Shown: positions 14,916-36,903 of the stretch, piece by piece | Layout: each line of letters begins with the position of its first letter | Position numbering within the stretch: the first letter of the stretch is position 1 | Virus record (IMG/VR): IMGVR_UViG_3300002307_000121 | Location: 1-37,525 of that record | Length of the DNA stretch: 37,525 nt | Strand: one strand, 5' to 3' | Origin: a virus | Lineage: Duplodnaviria > Caudoviricetes | Made by a program: the position numbers and the translations under genes | Notes under the pieces: model-generated | Seen by the model: the letters and a program-made list of their open reading frames with translations, nothing else | Database searches by the model: none | What the model was told of the DNA's origin: nothing

Positions 14916-15566
14916 ATGTGTATTTATTGCGGCACTAAGAACTATCGTAAAATCTATGAGAATCATTATGGACCCGTCCCCCGAGATTCTGATGGAAGAA
15001 AACACGAAGTTCATCACGTTGATGGTAATCGAACAAATAACGACCCTACTAATCTAGTATGTGTGTCTATTAAAGAACACTATGACATTCATTATGCTCA
15101 ACAAGACTGGGGAGCCTGCCTAAGAATCGCAGAAAAAATGAAGCTGCCGCCGGAAGAACTTTCGGAACTTGCTAGAAAAAATGCAAACAAGTTAGTATCA
15201 GAAGGGACTCACCCTTTCTTAGGAGGTTCCGTTCAACGAAGGTCCAATGCTAAACGAGTCGCCGAGGGTACTCATAACTTTTTAGGTAGCGATACATCAA
15301 GTAAGGTGCAACAGGCCCGTGTTCAGAATGGAACTCATCATTTTCTAAACGGAGAACTTTCTCGGAATACGCAACAACGACGAATCAACGACGGTACTCA
15401 CCACTTTTTAGATAGTGAGTACCATAGAAGAAACGCAAAAAAGCTATTAGACGCCGGAAAGCATCCCACCCAATATAAATGGACATGTCCGCATTGCAAT
15501 AAGAGTGGTCAAGGTAAAAGCTTATATACTAGGTGGCACGGTGACAACTGTAAAGGTAAGATTTAA
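14916..15566 (+). CDS. Free-standing HNH endonuclease (paralogue 1)
   Basis: EVHHVDGNRTNNDPTNL...EH HNH motif, GTHxFL repeats, C-terminal CPHC...RWHGDNC; AAGGAG RBS; TAAATA at 14848. Confidence 0.88.
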   Translation: MCIYCGTKNYRKIYENHYGPVPRDSDGRKHEVHHVDGNRTNNDPTNLVCVSIKEHYDIHYAQQDWGACLRIAEKMKLPPEELSELARKNANKLVSEGTHPFLGGSVQRRSNAKRVAEGTHNFLGSDTSSKVQQARVQNGTHHFLNGELSRNTQQRRINDGTHHFLDSEYHRRNAKKLLDAGKHPTQYKWTCPHCNKSGQGKSLYTRWHGDNCKGKI

Positions 15567-24649: not shown

Positions 24650-24724
24650 TGGAGCGAACGATGGGGGTCGAACCCACGACCTTCTGGTTGGCAACCAGAT
24701 GCTCTACCACTGAGCTACGTTCGC
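24650..24724 (-). tRNA. tRNA-Gly(GCC)
   Basis: Cloverleaf; anticodon arm TCTGG-TTGCCAA-CCAGA; U73; encoded CCA. Confidence 0.95.
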
Positions 24725-24731
24725 ATTACTC

Positions 24732-24805
24732 TGGAGCGTATGAAGGGAATCGAACCCTCGTCATCTGGTTGGAAGCCAGAAGCTCTACCATTGAGCTACA
24801 TACGC
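24732..24805 (-). tRNA. tRNA-Gly(TCC)
   Basis: TCTGG-CTTCCAA-CCAGA; U73; CCA. Confidence 0.95.
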
Positions 24806-24898
24806 AATAATCTTGCTACTCATTTGCTAGACTTGCGAGTTGTGCAAGTCACCTCTGACCCGAAGCATCAGTAGGAGGTTAGTAGCTACCTAAGTAAC

Positions 24899-24977
24899 TG
24901 GTTGCGGGGGTCGGATTTGAACCGACGATTTCCGGCTTATGAGACCAGCGAGGACAACCTGACTCCTCTACCCCACG
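24899..24977 (-). tRNA. Initiator tRNA-fMet(CAT)
   Basis: CAT anticodon; C1:A72 mismatch; ...CGCAACCA end. Confidence 0.88.
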
Positions 24978-24980
24978 ATA

Positions 24981-25111
24981 TAAACTATTTAGAAGAACAC
25001 ACAAATATGAAGAATGTTGACGCATTTTCAATTGCAGTCCGTCAAAACCACCGACTCCTTGTTATCGCACAGGGTTAGCTTTTGCCGATGTGTGTTCATC
25101 AAAATAGTCTA
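24981..25111 (-). ncRNA. Candidate ~130-nt structured RNA
   Basis: ~22-bp imperfect terminal helix enclosing two hairpins; no ORF. Confidence 0.5.
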
Positions 25112-25132: not shown

Positions 25133-25965
25133 ACAAAGCATGAGATTACTGCTTTAAACGAGTGACTTTGGTCATTACCGAATCCCTTGCGAGGACCGTT
25201 CTACCGTTATCCACTAACGCCTTTTACGGTCAGTTAGTATCACTCAATGCTGCCTTTTTGAGAGTCTGGCGTTTGACTCGTCGCATATGTCTACTCGACC
25301 ATCTATCTTTCGCTAGCCTTGCGGGCTATTCAAGGTCGCTAAACCCTTACGCTTTCTTTCCGATCAATCAGTTCAGCCTTGCGAGCCTTCCTGAACCACA
25401 TTCCCTTGCGAGTGTGGTATTAAGCATCTTTAAACATATACCGGAGCAGTCTTTCGCTTTTGTGTGACAAACCAGGAGTTGAACCTAGATCGACAGTTCC
25501 ATAAACTGTTGCATTACCATTATGCAATTTGCGAACCTACCAAGATGTGCTGCTCCAGTTGCTCCATACCTTGTTAGATACAGAATACAACACACCCCAT
25601 GTCTTTTGCCTTGCGGGCTACTCAACCATACTTTACGATTCCGGAGCAAGTGTCCTCCTTCTTCGCTTGTATTGCTATCTTGCCTTTCCTTGCGGGTCAG
25701 ACTCGATAACTACACGTTAACATTCAGTATTCGTCAGTTTGGCTGTACATCGTGAGAGCGCCAACCCTCTTATCTACTCACCGATTCGGCTCTGTAGACT
25801 ATCCCCTTCGGGACGACATACCTGACTTACTACTTACCGCCTTCCTACAGACGGCCCTTTCGGGTAGTTCGTGCTTGCATAGATGGACTCTTACGAGCGC
25901 AAGTGCGTAGGCTTTCTTGCTTTGACAGAGATTACTCCCTGCTACCCTAATGAGGCTATGCCCCC
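25133..25965 (-). ncRNA. Large ornate RNA, GOLLD-like (boundaries approximate)
   Basis: ~830 nt with no credible ORF; six C-GCAA-G plus C-GTAA-G and C-GAAA-G capped hairpins on the minus strand; embedded tRNA-like domain; own promoter; tRNA-array context. Confidence 0.75.
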
Positions 25966-25978
25966 AATTCTTATTCAA

Positions 25979-26050
25979 TTTTCAAAGAGCTAAGACAGAT
26001 AGTTTCTGTCTTGATAAATTCATTATATATATTCTTGCTACCATTGTCAA
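25979..26050 (-). promoter_or_regulatory. Consensus sigma70 promoter + hairpin + boxA antitermination leader
   Basis: TTGACA-N17-TATAAT (26050-26022); hairpin AAGACAGA/TCTGTCTT; GCTCTTTGAAAA (25990-25979). Confidence 0.75.
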
Positions 26051-26146
26051 GAACTTTTTCATTTTTTTTTCAAAAAAGATAAATAAAAGTGTAGTTCGCG
26101 GTACAGCAATACCCAACTACTCTAACGCTTACGAGGAGCAATCAGC

Positions 26147-26674
26147 ATGTGTATTTATTGCGGTACCAAGTACTACAGAAAAATTTATGAGAACCACGTG
26201 GGTTCTATTCCCAAAGACGAAACCGGTCGATCATATGATATTCATCATAAAGACGGCGATCATTCTAATAATCACTACACTAACCTAGTCGCACTAACCA
26301 TTAAAGATCACTATGACGCACATTACGCTAATAATGATTGGGCGGCTTGTCTAATCATGTCAGCAAGAATGTCGCTTTCAGCGAAAGCTAAATCCGAACT
26401 AGCTAAACAATCAGTGGCTAGACAACTCACTAATGATAAACACGCTTGGAAGGGTGGCGATCATCAGCGAAACCTTGCTTTGAAGCGTTCACTTGATGGT
26501 TCTCATCCTTTTTTGGGAGGAGAAATACAACGAGAGCATAATTTGCGCCGAGTAGCAGATGGTTCACATCCTTTCACAAAAAAACAAACATGTGAGCATT
26601 GCGGAAAGCAAGCTAACTTAGGAATGTATGCTCGGTGGCACGGAGATAACTGCAAACACAAACATCAATCGTAA
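26147..26674 (+). CDS. Free-standing HNH endonuclease (paralogue 2)
   Basis: MCIYCGT.YYRKIYENH, DIHHKDGDHSNNHYTNL, GSHPFL repeats, CEHC...RWHGDNC. Confidence 0.88.
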   Translation: MCIYCGTKYYRKIYENHVGSIPKDETGRSYDIHHKDGDHSNNHYTNLVALTIKDHYDAHYANNDWAACLIMSARMSLSAKAKSELAKQSVARQLTNDKHAWKGGDHQRNLALKRSLDGSHPFLGGEIQREHNLRRVADGSHPFTKKQTCEHCGKQANLGMYARWHGDNCKHKHQS

Positions 26675-26901: not shown

Positions 26902-26994
26902 TAGAAAGTTCCTTTCATCTGCTCTTGATATACTCTTATAACAAGATATCAGGCTATTGTCAAGAACTTTTTTGCCTATTTTTCAAAAAAGTTT

Positions 26995-27221
26995 GGGAGA
27001 GAAAGATTAAGTGATAGACAATGCAATTCACAGCGACTCACCCTTTCGGGCCTGTCTATAGACACTAAACACTAAACAAGCTGCAAAAATAGCTTACTTC
27101 CGAGACAAACAATTCACAAAGTTGAATAAAGTCTGGTTCATGCTATTATACGCTAAAAGCGTTGCGATCTATAATACCATCCAGGTATTAGGGTGTCTAC
27201 TCTCGTCTCTCTTTCTCTCCC
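26995..27221 (-). ncRNA. Candidate ~225-nt RNA with internal heptamer repeats
   Basis: Perfect 12-bp terminal helix GGGAGAGAAAGA/TCTTTCTCTCCC; TGTnnnn repeats inside. Confidence 0.55.
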
Positions 27222-27261
27222 TGGTAGCCCCGTTTGGGGAGCAAAATGGGCTACCAAACTG

Positions 27262-28172: not shown

Positions 28173-28580
28173 TTAGCAAAAAGTCTTAATCGCTTTCAAA
28201 TCTTCACCGATGTTGTCTTCATTGATTGGACCAAGACCCAAACAAGTGGTCGTTGGTTCATTAAACACCGTGAAACCAGCATCCGTTACCAGACTGGTAC
28301 CACAAATGTCCTTGTACTTTTCCTGTAGAGCCTTAAGCTCATCCACGGTGTCTACGATCAGCGTGATCTTATAAGCACGTTCGCTATTTTTATAAGCATT
28401 TGCTTGGCTGCTCTTTCGAACGGATGCTTCGGCGCTGGCGGCGCTGCTGTGATCAATAATCGTAGCATCCCAAAAAGCGTGTAGATAAGCATGTCCGCTC
28501 ATTGAGGCTAGTTTCCCTCGGACACCGTTCATCTTCTTAACAGATTCGTTTGCAAATATGCAGTACATTTTAACTTTCAT
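28173..28580 (-). CDS. pth2: Peptidyl-tRNA hydrolase, Pth2 type
   Basis: GKLASMSGHA, KITL and V.DAGFT......TCLGLGP signature. Confidence 0.9.
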   Translation of the reverse strand: MKVKMYCIFANESVKKMNGVRGKLASMSGHAYLHAFWDATIIDHSSAASAEASVRKSSQANAYKNSERAYKITLIVDTVDELKALQEKYKDICGTSLVTDAGFTVFNEPTTTCLGLGPINEDNIGEDLKAIKTFC

Positions 28581-28743
28581 CTTCATCTTCACCTAGATAA
28601 TATTCTTTCAAAGCATCATAATCAATATGATATTCTCGCTTTAGAAATTCAACTACTTTCCTTGCGGTAAACATATCCAACCCACAGTTAGCGGTTAGGT
28701 CGATTACTAGTTCGTGATAAACATCAGCAGTCTTACTTTTCAT
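28570..28743 (-). CDS. Small hypothetical protein
   Basis: MKSKTAD start after AAGGA; promoter at 28778-28806. Confidence 0.5.
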   Translation of the reverse strand: MKSKTADVYHELVIDLTANCGLDMFTARKVVEFLKREYHIDYDALKEYYLGEDEDES

Positions 28744-29505: not shown

Positions 29506-29591
29506 TGGAGGACGTAGTGAGGCTCGAACTCACAAGGCATTTCTGCGGCAGATTAAGAGTCTGCTGGACCAACCAATTGTCCAATACGTCC
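29506..29591 (-). tRNA. tRNA-Lys(CTT) with long variable arm
   Basis: GCAGA-CTCTTAA-TCTGC; variable region CGCAGAAATGCCTT; U73; CCA; 86 nt. Confidence 0.85.
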
Positions 29592-29737: not shown

Positions 29738-30370
29738 ATGTGTATTTATTGTGGAACCACCAAATATCGTAAGATTTATGAGAATCATATAGGTCCCATA
29801 CCAAAAGATGGTGAGGGTAGAACCTATGAGATTCATCATAAGGATGGGAACAGCAAAAACAATCACCCGGAAAACTTAATTGCATTATCTATTCAAGAAC
29901 ACTATGATGTTCATTATAAACAAGGTGATTGGGGTGCGTGTGCCTTTATTGCACAGTATAGATTAAATCACACTAAAGAAGACATTAGCGAACTTGTTAG
30001 GAGAGCCAACTTAGCAAGGGTAGCGAAAGGTACACATCCGTTTATGCGTAGAGCAGACGGAACTTCCATTGCGTCAGATAGAATGAAGGATGGTACTAAT
30101 CCATTCCTAACAATCACCGCCGAGAAAATGAAGGATGGGACACACTACTTTCTTAGTGAAGAACATTCTAAAAAATCAAGGTCGCGCCAGCTTTCTCTTA
30201 TAGAAAATGGGACACACAACTTTCTTGTTGAAAAAGAATGTCCTCATTGTCAATATAAAGGTCAATCAGTTATCATGGCTCGTTGGCACTTTGATAACTG
30301 CAAACTGTCACCTAACTATGTGCCAAAACCTAAAAGAAAATACAAGAAGCGGAAGAACCAGACCACCTAG
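29738..30370 (+). CDS. Free-standing HNH endonuclease (paralogue 3)
   Basis: MCIYCGTTKYRKIYENH, EIHHKDGNSKNNHPENL, GTHxFL repeats, CPHC...RWHFDNC. Confidence 0.88.
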   Translation: MCIYCGTTKYRKIYENHIGPIPKDGEGRTYEIHHKDGNSKNNHPENLIALSIQEHYDVHYKQGDWGACAFIAQYRLNHTKEDISELVRRANLARVAKGTHPFMRRADGTSIASDRMKDGTNPFLTITAEKMKDGTHYFLSEEHSKKSRSRQLSLIENGTHNFLVEKECPHCQYKGQSVIMARWHFDNCKLSPNYVPKPKRKYKKRKNQTT

Positions 30371-33686: not shown

Positions 33687-34091
33687 TTATATATTTAGAT
33701 GTTTTTTCGCATTTTCAATATAACCAATAATTCGTTCTTTCCCTGCAGGGTTCATTGAATGAACAACATACTTGGGAAACTTGCGACCTTTTTCAGCGCA
33801 ATAATCAACTAGCCACTTTGCACAATCATAACCTGTCTTTTCAGAGCCATAGTCTACGATAGTTTCAAGTTGCTTAACTGGATTGCTTTCATTTTCCTTG
33901 AGCATAGCAGCATAGTGTTCATCTGCAAGATCGTGGTCGAAACACACGAAAGCAGGAATTCCGCCCTGAGAGACTTGATTAATAAATGCCTCATAATTGC
34001 GTACAGTAAATGTTGCTTCGTATCTAGGAAATTCAGCCCAAGTTACATCATCGGGGTTTCTTACATCATCAAGAAACAATACATATGACAT
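33687..34091 (-). CDS. Cyclic-phosphate-processing receiver (REC-like) domain protein
   Basis: LFLDDVRNP, FDHDL, TGYDCAKWL and VHSMNPAG motifs; true start MSYVL lies after tRNA-Ser. Confidence 0.8.
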   Translation of the reverse strand: MSYVLFLDDVRNPDDVTWAEFPRYEATFTVRNYEAFINQVSQGGIPAFVCFDHDLADEHYAAMLKENESNPVKQLETIVDYGSEKTGYDCAKWLVDYCAEKGRKFPKYVVHSMNPAGKERIIGYIENAKKHLNI

Positions 34092-34109
34092 AATGAGCCT
34101 TTCTAATCT

Positions 34110-34199
34110 TGGCGGAAGCGGTGGGATTCGAACCCACGGTACCCTCTCAGGTACGCTGGTTTTCAAGACCAGATCAATCGGCCGCTCTGACACGCTTCC
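34110..34199 (-). tRNA. tRNA-Ser(TGA)
   Basis: CTGGT-CTTGAAA-ACCAG; long variable arm; G73; CCA. Confidence 0.95.
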
Positions 34200-34668: not shown

Positions 34669-34759
34669 TGGTGTGCCACCTCGGATTCGAACCGAGATCG
34701 TCCCCTAATCTGGGCTCCGGGATATAAATCCGGCCGCTCTACCGTTGAGCTAATGGCAC
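34669..34759 (-). tRNA. tRNA-Ile(TAT) with long variable arm
   Basis: CCGGA-TTTATAT-CCCGG; ~20-nt variable region; A73; CCA; 91 nt. Confidence 0.75.
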
Positions 34760-35376: not shown

Positions 35377-35449
35377 ATGTTTTCCTCTCAAAACGAGACC
35401 CTTTTAAAGAGTCAAACTATTTATAGTGATAAACACACGATGCCAATAA

Positions 35450-35587
35450 ACTTGTTACGCTAACACTGACTCGAACTGTAAAGGGATCGAACCTAAACCT
35501 GGGTCCTTGCCAAGGTCCCGTGCTACCGCTACACTACCTGTTCCTTCAATGCTTGCAATCATAGGAATCAGTGTTAGCGAAACAAGT
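35450..35587 (-). ncRNA. tRNA-like element (GGC anticodon loop) enclosed in a 20-bp helix, no CCA
   Basis: D-arm GTGT-AGCGGTA-GCAC, arm GGACC-TTGGCAA-GGACC and T-loop GGTTCGATCCC, all inside ACTTGTTTCGCTAACACTGA/TCAGTGTTAGCGTAACAAGT. Confidence 0.6.
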
Positions 35588-35711
35588 CTAAAATTAACTC
35601 CAACCAGCAGTATTATCATCCTTATCACGTATACCGTTGATGATAGCTATTGCTACTGAAATTGCAATCATGATAATTATGATCTTAATCATAAATTACT
35701 TTCATTTAGTT

Positions 35712-36002
35712 TGGTATGAGCGGCGGGACTCGAACCCGCACGTCCAAAGGACACAAGATTTTCTTACCACTATAGCTTTCGCTACCGAATCGTTTGTGGT
35801 CTGGACTATACCTTCACCATAGCCAATGCTTTAGGTGCTCGCCGTCTAGTCTCTACACGTTCAAAGGTATTTCTACCTAAGCTTCGCTCGGTATTAGCAT
35901 TTGAAAGCCTTCACCGAATTTGACGAGTTCTACTCCGAGGATTTCTCCAAGGGCACTCAAATTGTTCAAGTCTCGGGCGTCTACCTATTCCGCCACGCTC
36001 AC
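35712..36002 (-). tRNA. tRNA-Leu(TAA) interrupted by a group I intron (exons 36002-35968 and 35762-35712)
   Basis: Joining the exons gives an 86-nt cloverleaf with CGAGA-CTTAAAA-TCTTG, long variable arm, A73 and CCA. Confidence 0.92.
35763..35967 (-). mobile_element. Self-splicing group I intron (IC3-like), 205 nt, no ORF
   Basis: P1 CTT/GAG with U.G pair; P AAATTCGGTGAAG; Q AATACCGAGCGAAG; R AGAGACTAGACG; S GAAGGTATAGTCC; terminal G. Confidence 0.9.
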
Positions 36003-36025: not shown

Positions 36026-36093
36026 TGTCAAAGAGCAGAGTGTGTTTCTCACTCTGTATATCTCTTTATACGACATATTAGGGGTAATGTCAA
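36026..36093 (-). promoter_or_regulatory. sigma70 promoter + hairpin + boxA leader of a tRNA operon
   Basis: TTGACA-N17-TATAAA; hairpin CAGAGTG/CACTCTG; TGCTCTTTGACA (36037-36026). Confidence 0.78.
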
Positions 36094-36100
36094 GAAGTTT

Positions 36101-36393
36101 TTTCACTGCTTACAGCCTGACTGGACTACTTGCGACTAGGGCGGGATCGCATCTCCGATTCTCTGACTCGGGGACTTCTCCCTCTGTCCTAAAATCTCGG
36201 ACCTTTCTCGTGCTGCAACCATCAGTAGTATCGCCGAAAGCAAGCGTTTTTCGCTATCGGTCGTCTACTGAACTTTCTAGTACCGTAATCTAACTTCAAA
36301 CATACTCATGGACAGTTTCGTTCAAGTTAAACGACTTGTTCCACTTTCAGAATGTTGTTATTCCGGCTGCCCAGCCCGTCTGTAAACAGTGAA
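36101..36393 (-). ncRNA. Candidate ~293-nt multibranch RNA
   Basis: 14-bp terminal helix TTCACTGTTTACAG/CTGTAAGCAGTGAA plus CTGGGC/GTCCAG; several internal hairpins; starts immediately after the tRNA-Trp CCA. Confidence 0.6.
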
Positions 36394-36482
36394 TGGCACA
36401 GGAAGTAGGATTCGAACCCACGCGGAGCTATCGCTTCAATGGTTTTGGAGACCATCACCTTCGGCCACTCGGTCATTCCTGC
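36394..36482 (-). tRNA. tRNA with Trp anticodon (CCA) and Ser-like long variable arm
   Basis: ATGGT-CTCCAAA-ACCAT; variable arm TGAAGCGATAGCTCCGC; G73; 89 nt. Confidence 0.85.
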
Positions 36483-36492
36483 ACTTAGTTTA

Positions 36493-36903
36493 TTAGAAGT
36501 GAACTACACCACTGTCAATGATCGGATGCTCGTCATCAGTACGGTCAACTACAGTATATGTAATCTTCGTCGTACCGAATTCTTTGAGCATATCAGAAAC
36601 ACTGTCTAGCGTAAAATCTTTGCAACTGTAAAGATCAAATTTATAAAAAGCGGGCTCACCGTCCCAAAAATGTATGCTACTATGACTAGTAGTAATACCC
36701 ACCATTCCAGTAACACCTTCGTTTCCTTCATCGTCACACCAGACGCAGATAGGATCAATTAATACCTTCATATCAACTGCTTCGACCAAGCGGCGAAACC
36801 AATCTTGAAGGTGAGGGACGAAATCAGGTCCAGGTGCCTTTGCTAGGTATCCTGTGACCAATACATGCTTGTTAACTTGAGCCAACTCATAAAATCCTTT
36901 CAC
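36493..36903 (-). CDS. speD: S-adenosylmethionine decarboxylase proenzyme homologue (pyruvoyl-dependent)
   Basis: GVTGMVGITTSHSSIHFW (self-cleavage Ser-His) and FDLYSC motifs; late promoter ATAAATA. Confidence 0.8.
   Translation of the reverse strand: MKGFYELAQVNKHVLVTGYLAKAPGPDFVPHLQDWFRRLVEAVDMKVLIDPICVWCDDEGNEGVTGMVGITTSHSSIHFWDGEPAFYKFDLYSCKDFTLDSVSDMLKEFGTTKITYTVVDRTDDEHPIIDSGVVHF

What the first reader, a model, noticed from the sequence alone, without database searches (positions are those of the whole stretch)
25465..25534. Non-chargeable tRNA-like domain with an AUG (His) anticodon built into the giant RNA
Seen: TCGCAAA-TT-GCAT-AATGGTA-ATGC-A-ACAGT-TTATGGA-ACTGT-CGAT-CTAGG-TTCAACT-CCTGG-TTTGTCA. 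D, anticodon and T arms are intact, the acceptor stem is weak and there is no CCA. Known: bacterial tRNA-His uses GUG, and A34 is essentially confined to Arg(ACG). Inference: a retained tRNA mimic displayed on the RNA scaffold as a nuclease/synthetase decoy or an RNase P processing signal.
Basis: partly seen in the sequence, partly recalled or inferred. Interest (0 to 1): 0.7.

Follow-up and report, generated by a model that had tools for sequence, protein, structure and literature searches.

The report
Switchable anticodon mimic inside phage GOLLD
A freshwater phage's giant GOLLD RNA carries a built-in tRNA look-alike, an arrangement already described, whose "histidine" anticodon is a one-off state of a loop that in related phages either stays lysine-like or jumps several letters at once, which likely means host tRNA-recognising proteins act on it.

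Summary
The cloverleaf at 25464-25534 (-) is real and lies in the variable linker of a GOLLD RNA (Rfam 204 bits). tRNAs or pseudo-tRNAs in this linker are already published, and this scan met one before on other DNA (e1-8345444). The His reading fails: AUG occurs in 1 of 65 distinct homologous domains and GUG in none; position -1 is U; the nearest bodies mostly carry the Lys(CUU) loop. The fold is not decaying: D, anticodon and T stems are 98-100% paired with compensatory changes. The acceptor stem is imperfect in all 65, and 61 of 65 lack CCA. The new point is the loop. It is identical (CUCUUAA) in 19 of 65 domains on 8 different stems, yet differs by 3-5 letters between near-identical phages; free-standing tRNAs keep their anticodon in 84 of 84 close pairs, against 55 of 170 here. 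Simple point drift did not reproduce this (0 of 300 simulations). Best reading: a tethered, likely unchargeable tRNA-Lys mimic whose loop is read by host proteins and is sometimes switched off. That function is inferred; relaxed constraint plus recombination remains a serious rival.

The parts
26022..26050 (-). sigma-70-type promoter-like site TTGACA-17-TATAAT upstream of the GOLLD RNA
   Evidence: 12 of 12 consensus match; function not tested
25137..25975 (-). GOLLD RNA, about 840 nt; the 5' end is approximate
   Evidence: identity among 18 close GOLLDs rises to about 0.9 from about 25970; 3' end from Rfam
25137..25598 (-). part matched by Rfam GOLLD RF02032 (last 5'-domain hairpin, linker, 3' domain)
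   Evidence: 204 bits, E 2.2e-56
25464..25534 (-). tRNA-like domain in the GOLLD linker
25528..25534 (-). 5' strand of the weak acceptor stem; the base before it (-1) is U
   Evidence: sequence
25511..25525 (-). D arm, 4 bp, loop with A14 and G18G19
   Evidence: 98.0% of cells paired, all 4 pairs with two-sided changes
25493..25509 (-). anticodon arm, 5 bp
   Evidence: 98.1% of cells paired, all 5 pairs with two-sided changes
25498..25504 (-). anticodon loop UUAUGGA (AUG at 25502-25500), private to this record
   Evidence: 1 of 65 distinct domains
25472..25488 (-). T arm, 5 bp, loop UUCAACU
   Evidence: 100% of cells paired
25461..25471 (-). 3' acceptor strand, C73, then ACA in place of CCA, continuing into the GOLLD 3' domain
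   Evidence: sequence
24650..24977 (-). free-standing tRNA-Met(CAT), tRNA-Gly(TCC) and tRNA-Gly(GCC), all with CCA, downstream on the same strand
26147..26674 (+). HNH endonuclease gene, divergent from the GOLLD promoter
   Evidence: Pfam HNH_3, E 1.7e-9; not seen beside GOLLD in 57 other loci

Best explanation
It is a tRNA-shaped domain built into the linker of a phage GOLLD RNA, likely descended from a tRNA-Lys(CUU), predicted to stay attached and uncharged, and likely serving as a bait or handle for host proteins that read tRNA anticodon arms. Shown: the D, anticodon and T arms and the elbow bases are kept by compensatory change; the outer acceptor pairs and CCA are lost; whole domains sit on mismatched GOLLD backgrounds, as expected if they are swapped as a cassette; the loop either stays CUCUUAA or CUUCUAA or changes by several letters. 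Inferred: the lysine-type loop is useful because a host tRNA-directed protein (an anticodon nuclease, a synthetase or an anticodon-modifying enzyme) binds it, 12-14 copies per cage if this RNA assembles like published GOLLDs; where that recognition is harmful (for example the loop is cut), phages replace the loop, at no cost to translation because they carry a separate tRNA-Lys(CUU). The UUAUGGA loop of this window would be one such switched state; it has nothing to do with histidine.
For: Embedded in GOLLD. Stems 98-100% paired, 298 cells with two-sided change against 87 in shuffles, 0 of 500 shuffles reach it, slid controls 32-43% paired. No domain of 65 has 7 of 7 acceptor pairs, pair 2:71 forms in 16 of 65, CCA in 4 of 65. 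CUCUUAA in 19 of 65, on 8 different stem sequences, from Caulobacter phages to freshwater contigs. Distance to the nearer of the two common loops among 59 seven-base loops: 26 at 0, 4 at 1, 5 at 2, 24 at 3 or more. phiCbK against Magneto: 5 adjacent loop bases differ, 2 differences in the 400 flanking bases, four-fold sites 5.5% apart; it is the only one of 22 such clusters in 40 kb with at most 1 difference in 100 bases on both sides. L184/L197 and L014/L149 show the same. Anticodon kept in 84 of 84 close pairs of free-standing tRNAs against 55 of 170 embedded pairs. Independent-site drift gave a commonest loop of 4.5-5.7 tips against 20-21 observed, 0 of 300 on two trees. A separate tRNA-Lys(CUU) with CCA is present in this window, G001, G002, G005, Magneto and phiCbK. 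In 3 of 4 freshwater RNA runs the majority letters at the loop spell CUCUUAA, and contigs cross both domain borders (relatives, weak).
Against: No binding partner is identified, and nothing was tested at the bench. Many changed loops match no ordinary tRNA (6- and 8-base loops, CGUCCUA), so they cannot be retargeted baits. The Caulobacter jump can come from one recombination with a BL57-like allele, whose nearest diagnostic difference lies 60 bases away. A loop held in place until a first hit and free afterwards, plus recombination, would also fail the drift simulation. The best documented nuclease targets are Lys(UUU), Thr and Asn (PMC12409363 abstract), not Lys(CUU). The domain is optional: 15 of 35 GOLLD loci found by a 3'-end motif carry it. 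Published structures put the linker inside the cage (PMC12286853), which limits access. Two of the search patterns and my parser favour tRNA-like linkers.
Confidence: 0.45

Rival explanations
1. Structural handle only: the L-shape (elbow and anticodon helix) is what matters. The loop is weakly held in its ancestral lysine state and drifts once hit, and recombination between phages shuffles the resulting alleles.
For: Elbow bases invariant (A14, G18G19, U54U55C56, A58 in 65 of 65; partly imposed by patterns and parser). 37 different loops incl. 6- and 8-base ones. Cassette exchange is visible (window against L137: differences concentrated in the domain). Conserved stems would hide short recombination tracts. 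An earlier scan note (e1-8345444) read another GOLLD this way.
Against: Fully free drift is rejected (0 of 300). CUCUUAA survives on 8 compensated stem variants. Single-step neighbours are rare (4 of 59). Three separate near-identical pairs differ mainly in the loop.
Confidence: 0.3
2. Processing signal or stored tRNA: RNase P and a 3' nuclease cut the domain out, splitting or maturing GOLLD and perhaps releasing a tRNA after CCA addition.
For: 6 of 7 acceptor pairs here; 4 of 65 relatives keep CCA at 74-76. A storage idea is raised in review PMC12990946.
Against: The acceptor is the worst-kept helix (68.5% paired; some of this is alignment shift, but the structure-based parse also finds no 7 of 7). 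The anticodon is not conserved as in working tRNAs. No separate expression of the embedded pseudo-tRNA was detected in a mycobacterial GOLLD (PMC6582537). RNA contigs of relatives cross both borders (weak).
Confidence: 0.1
3. DNA-level escape: the 7-base loop between inverted repeats is a target of a homing endonuclease or of an integrase that uses tRNA anticodon loops, and loop changes are escapes that real tRNA genes cannot afford.
For: Block changes and 1-base length changes sit at one spot. The window has three HNH genes, one beside GOLLD. Use of tRNA anticodon loops as integrase crossover sites is recalled, not checked.
Against: An HNH gene of this type lies beside GOLLD in 1 of 58 loci, the window only. 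I made no search for inserted elements at the loop. It does not explain why CUCUUAA is kept.
Confidence: 0.1
4. A histidine-specific element: a working tRNA-His(AUG) or a decoy for His-tRNA enzymes.
For: C73 is present, and the loop is one base from a GUG loop with G37 (sequence).
Against: U at -1 instead of G-1, the main His identity element (abstracts; some alphaproteobacteria lack it). AUG in 1 and GUG in 0 of 59 seven-base loops. The body is 2-7 differences from Lys-, Leu- and Ile-loop domains but 33 from the tRNA-His(GUG) of related phage G001.
Confidence: 0.03

Closest known systems
GOLLD RNA (Rfam RF02032) with a tRNA or pseudo-tRNA in the variable linker (PMC12286853 and its preprint 10.1101/2024.12.08.627333; PMC6582537; review PMC12990946; passages seen)
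   Same: Phage tRNA-array context, conserved 3' domain, tRNA-shaped insert in the linker; a pseudo-tRNA with no separate expression was reported in a mycobacterial GOLLD.
   Different: The passages seen treat the insert as a phage tRNA or pseudogene, possibly stored in the cage. They do not describe a kept fold with an eroded acceptor, cassette exchange, or a loop alternating between lysine-type stasis and multi-base jumps.
Phage tRNAs that evade anticodon nucleases by loop changes (PMC10264068, abstract and results read; PARIS AriB, PMC12409363, abstract)
   Same: [quoted passage not shown]
   Different: Those are working tRNAs that keep their anticodon; here the anticodon itself changes and the molecule is tethered and lacks CCA.
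tRNA-like domains of bacterial Y RNA and tmRNA (recalled; the Y RNA paper was seen only as a reference title)
   Same: A tRNA elbow built into a larger RNA.
   Different: As recalled, those lose or replace the anticodon arm, and tmRNA keeps a chargeable acceptor; this domain keeps the anticodon arm and loses the acceptor end.

Membership tests
GOLLD RNA (RF02032) | covariance-model score above the family cut-off over the whole model | tested here: met
   204 bits against 150, model positions 1-416
GOLLD RNA (RF02032) | phage or prophage location in a tRNA array | tested here: met
   25 ARAGORN calls; rIIA/rIIB, tail fibre and endolysin matches
GOLLD RNA (RF02032) | about 800 nt, variable 5' domain, variable linker, conserved 3' domain | tested here: met
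   about 840 nt conserved among relatives; 5' end approximate
GOLLD RNA (RF02032) | assembly into a 12- to 14-mer cage with the linker inside | not testable with these tools
   published for two other GOLLDs
bacterial tRNA-His | GUG anticodon | tested here: not met
   AUG here; GUG in 0 of 59 homologous seven-base loops
bacterial tRNA-His | G at position -1 | tested here: not met
   U precedes the acceptor stem; identity element from abstracts
bacterial tRNA-His | C73 discriminator | tested here: met
   sequence; base 73 varies freely among homologues
bacterial tRNA-His | charging with histidine | not testable with these tools
   needs an aminoacylation assay
working phage tRNA | complete acceptor stem and 3' CCA | tested here: not met
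   C2.C71 mismatch and ACA; 23 of 24 other calls in the window encode CCA; CCA could in principle be added later
working phage tRNA | anticodon conserved among homologues | tested here: not met
   55 of 170 close pairs against 84 of 84 for free-standing tRNAs
working phage tRNA | conserved D, anticodon and T arms and elbow bases | tested here: met
RNase P substrate | continuous acceptor plus T helix and 3' CCA (recalled) | tested here: inconclusive
   T arm intact, acceptor 6 of 7 with a mismatch at pair 2, no CCA; cleavage itself not testable
anticodon-nuclease decoy | binds or is cut by a host tRNA nuclease and protects host tRNA | not testable with these tools
   only the evolutionary pattern was tested

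The most novel reading that the evidence does not exclude
GOLLD cages are multivalent tRNA-Lys anticodon baits in an arms race with host tRNA-targeting defences: the tethered mimic soaks up, or is cut by, anticodon nucleases, and phages swap or scramble its loop as hosts change. This would be a first concrete function for GOLLD and a non-coding RNA form of counter-defence.
Probability: 0.25. Interest if true: 0.8.

Novelty: new member of a known kind. Interest (0 to 1): 0.4.

Why it matters
GOLLD has solved structures but no known function. If the anticodon loop of the embedded domain is under changing selection, the RNA's partner is a host factor that reads tRNA. The question is directly testable: cultured Caulobacter phages phiCbK and CcrMagneto differ at 1 of 791 GOLLD positions outside the loop, but at 5 of 7 loop bases. 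A practical point: annotation pipelines list these domains as tRNA-His, -Gly, -Lys or -Leu and so distort phage tRNA counts.

Tried and rejected
His origin: rejected. Neutral decay of the fold: rejected. Independent-site drift of the loop: rejected, 0 of 300 on each of two trees; this does not prove positive selection. Kissing partner inside GOLLD: no complement of 6 or more bases to the loop, and the phiCbK/Magneto loop change has no matching change elsewhere. Link to an adjacent HNH gene: 1 of 58 loci. The genome-contig scan was mostly ordinary tRNAs; 2 of 103 loci were GOLLD. The pattern missed most free-standing Lys tRNAs (1 found, in G002); the shorter pattern found them in 4 of 5 records, not in G004. 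A His(GUG) pattern matched 2 of 5 records, and ARAGORN showed a tRNA-His in the G001 locus; the window's own contig ends inside the tRNA array, so whether this phage has a normal tRNA-His is unknown. The RNA runs hold relatives, not this phage, as contigs only: no ends, strand, level or A-to-I editing can be read, and the uncovered flanks prove nothing. Variation of the loop within DNA populations remains unexamined. Host unknown: the best rIIA matches are about 37% identical. PMC7549688 (GOLLD in Mycobacterium) was not held. Rows dropped: L204 (the window's own record), L146 (mis-parsed; 8-base loop), L091 (cut short, left out of alignment A1, hence 64 of 65), 31 of 101 unique linkers with no parsable domain.

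Full report
Observation. ARAGORN calls it tRNA-His(atg). Rfam scores it as tRNA at 47.5 bits and places it inside a GOLLD match (25137-25598, 204 bits), in the model's unpaired linker. A 12 of 12 sigma-70 consensus lies at 26050-26022, and conservation among 18 relatives starts near 25970, so the RNA is about 840 nt. The window is a phage fragment (rIIA/rIIB, tail fibre, endolysin) with 25 ARAGORN calls; its host is unknown. The acceptor has 6 of 7 pairs with a C2.C71 mismatch, followed by C73 and ACA. Of the other 24 calls, 23 encode CCA.

[quoted passage not shown] A mycobacterial GOLLD holds a pseudo-tRNA with no separate expression detected (passages of PMC6582537). A review mentions an embedded tRNA-Phe and a storage idea (passages of PMC12990946). 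The paper it cites was not held. The original GOLLD description and the other cryo-EM papers were not seen, and I opened no supplements; any of these may discuss the inserts. Searches for GOLLD with tRNA, GOLLD RNA, GOLLD with anticodon, and tRNA mimic with decoy and anticodon nuclease showed no analysis of the insert's anticodon loop in what I read; of the three papers I saw only the GOLLD passages.

Homologues. Loci came from pattern scans and cultured phages. Of 365 sequences, 192 matched a profile of the GOLLD 3' domain; they gave 101 unique linkers, 70 with a parsable cloverleaf. After dropping one mis-parse and merging identical domains, 65 remained. Bias: two patterns required a T loop, one a D arm, and the parser required mostly paired stems. 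The 36 domains found by flanking patterns alone give the same picture (14 with CUCUUAA). In the set found by the 3'-end motif, 15 of 35 loci carry a domain, so it is optional.

The fold is maintained. On a MAFFT alignment of 64 of the 65, the D, anticodon and T helices are 98.0, 98.1 and 100% paired; 298 cells show two-sided changes against 87 in shuffles (0 of 500), and slid controls give 32-43% pairing (relatedness inflates the shuffle test). The acceptor is 68.5% paired. By the structure-based parse 25 domains have 6 of 7 pairs, 34 have 5, 6 have 4, none has 7; pair 2:71 forms in 16 of 65; 4 of 65 keep CCA. So a weak acceptor without CCA is the family state, with a few members nearer to an intact tRNA.

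The anticodon is not histidine. Among 59 seven-base loops there are 19 anticodon types: CUU 19, UCU 9, UAG 8, AUG 1, GUG 0; five loops have 8 bases and one has 6. The 15 bodies nearest to the window's differ at 2-7 positions and carry CUCUUAA in 9 cases; the tRNA-His(GUG) of a related complete phage differs at 33. Position -1 is U, whereas G-1 is the main His identity element outside some alphaproteobacteria (abstracts). tRNA-His(ATG) calls are rare in mycobacteria too.

The loop shows stasis and jumps. CUCUUAA sits on 8 different anticodon stems. Distances to the nearer of CUCUUAA and CUUCUAA are 0 for 26 loops, 1 for 4, 2 for 5, and 3 or more for 24. phiCbK and CcrMagneto differ at five adjacent loop bases (three edits if a shift is allowed), at 1 of 791 other GOLLD positions and at 214 of 3913 four-fold sites; of 22 dense mismatch clusters in 40 kb only this one has nearly clean flanks on both sides. 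L184/L197 differ by 3 loop edits and 1 of 400 flanking bases, L014/L149 by 4 edits and 12 of 400. Of the 12 closest pairs, 6 have identical loops. Free-standing tRNAs from the same loci keep their anticodon in 84 of 84 pairs with up to 8 body differences; embedded domains in 55 of 170 (pairs are not independent). Simulated independent-site drift matched to the observed steps never produced so common a modal loop or so wide a spread (0 of 300, two trees). Against over-reading: the more distant phage BL57 carries a loop one base from phiCbK's, and the stems are identical for 60 bases around it, so one recombination can explain that pair; a model in which the loop is held until a first hit would also fail this simulation. 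Whole domains also move: the window's closest flanks (L137) carry a different body, and its closest bodies (L201) have distant flanks.

Not needed for translation. A free-standing tRNA-Lys(CUU) with CCA is present in the window, G001, G002, G005, Magneto and phiCbK; none was found in G004. In four freshwater RNA runs, contigs of relatives cover the GOLLD region and several cross both borders of the domain; the majority loop letters spell CUCUUAA in three runs (134 of 157, 4287 of 4301, 126 of 139 depth) and are a minority in the fourth (24 of 59). These are contigs and cannot show single transcripts, ends or strand.

Mechanism. Shown: a tethered position, a kept L-shape including the anticodon arm, a lost amino-acid end, and a loop with a favoured lysine-type state and repeated multi-base departures. 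Inferred: a host protein that reads anticodon arms binds the domain; the lysine-type loop is favoured where this helps the phage (bait or recruitment) and replaced where it harms. Phage tRNAs are proposed to evade host nucleases through loop changes (PMC10264068, results read), and Lys, Thr and Asn tRNAs are AriB targets (PMC12409363, abstract), though Lys(UUU) rather than CUU. I put this at 0.45, a structural handle with relaxed loop and recombination at 0.3, a processing signal or stored tRNA at 0.1, DNA-level escape at 0.1, and a His-specific role at 0.03.

Verdict. The feature is real, and it is a new member of a described arrangement; the AUG anticodon is incidental. The added value is the evolutionary pattern of the loop and a ready natural pair of cultured phages to test it. 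Interest 0.4.

Noticed in passing
window 35712-36001 (-), intron about 35767-35966: A tRNA gene split in its anticodon loop by a group I intron (Rfam Intron_gpI 56.1 bits). The exons read as tRNA-Leu(UAA) ending in CCA; ARAGORN missed it. It resembles the trnL(UAA) intron of cyanobacteria (recalled).
   Followed up: partly
window 35445-35590 (-): A second odd tRNA-like element (ARAGORN Ala(ggc), 33 bits, no CCA, 35472-35543) is enclosed by a terminal helix of about 25 bp with a bulge. This looks like a bacterial Y RNA-type layout, but no Y RNA family matched at E up to 1.
   Followed up: partly
L001, L002, L358-L360, L363-L365 (Caulobacter phiCbK-like phages); L361, L362: These cultured phages carry GOLLD RNAs that the records shown do not annotate; the embedded domain is listed as tRNA-Lys, tRNA-Gly or tRNA-Leu, or not at all.
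   Followed up: yes
window 14916-15566, 26147-26674, 29738-30370 (+): Three related HNH endonuclease genes, each on the strand opposite to its neighbours.
   Followed up: partly
window 28173-28592, 33687-34193, 36493-36903 (-): Peptidyl-tRNA hydrolase PTH2, a cyclic-phosphate-processing receiver domain protein and an S-adenosylmethionine decarboxylase lie within the tRNA array.
   Followed up: no
window 29506-29591, 34669-34759, 36394-36482 (-): tRNA-Lys(CUU), tRNA-Ile(UAU) and tRNA-Trp have long variable arms, unusual for these types; the Lys(CUU) of phiCbK and Magneto does too.
   Followed up: no
window about 24985-25060 and 26130-26400: Other structured intergenic stretches exist, e.g. an inverted repeat between GOLLD and tRNA-Met, and hairpin-rich non-coding DNA near 26980-27260 and 36050-36390 with its own promoter-like motif; these may be further non-coding RNAs (seen by eye).
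   Followed up: no
L372:467-541: Related phage G001 encodes a free-standing tRNA-Thr(AGT) with CCA, a real A34 candidate.
   Followed up: no
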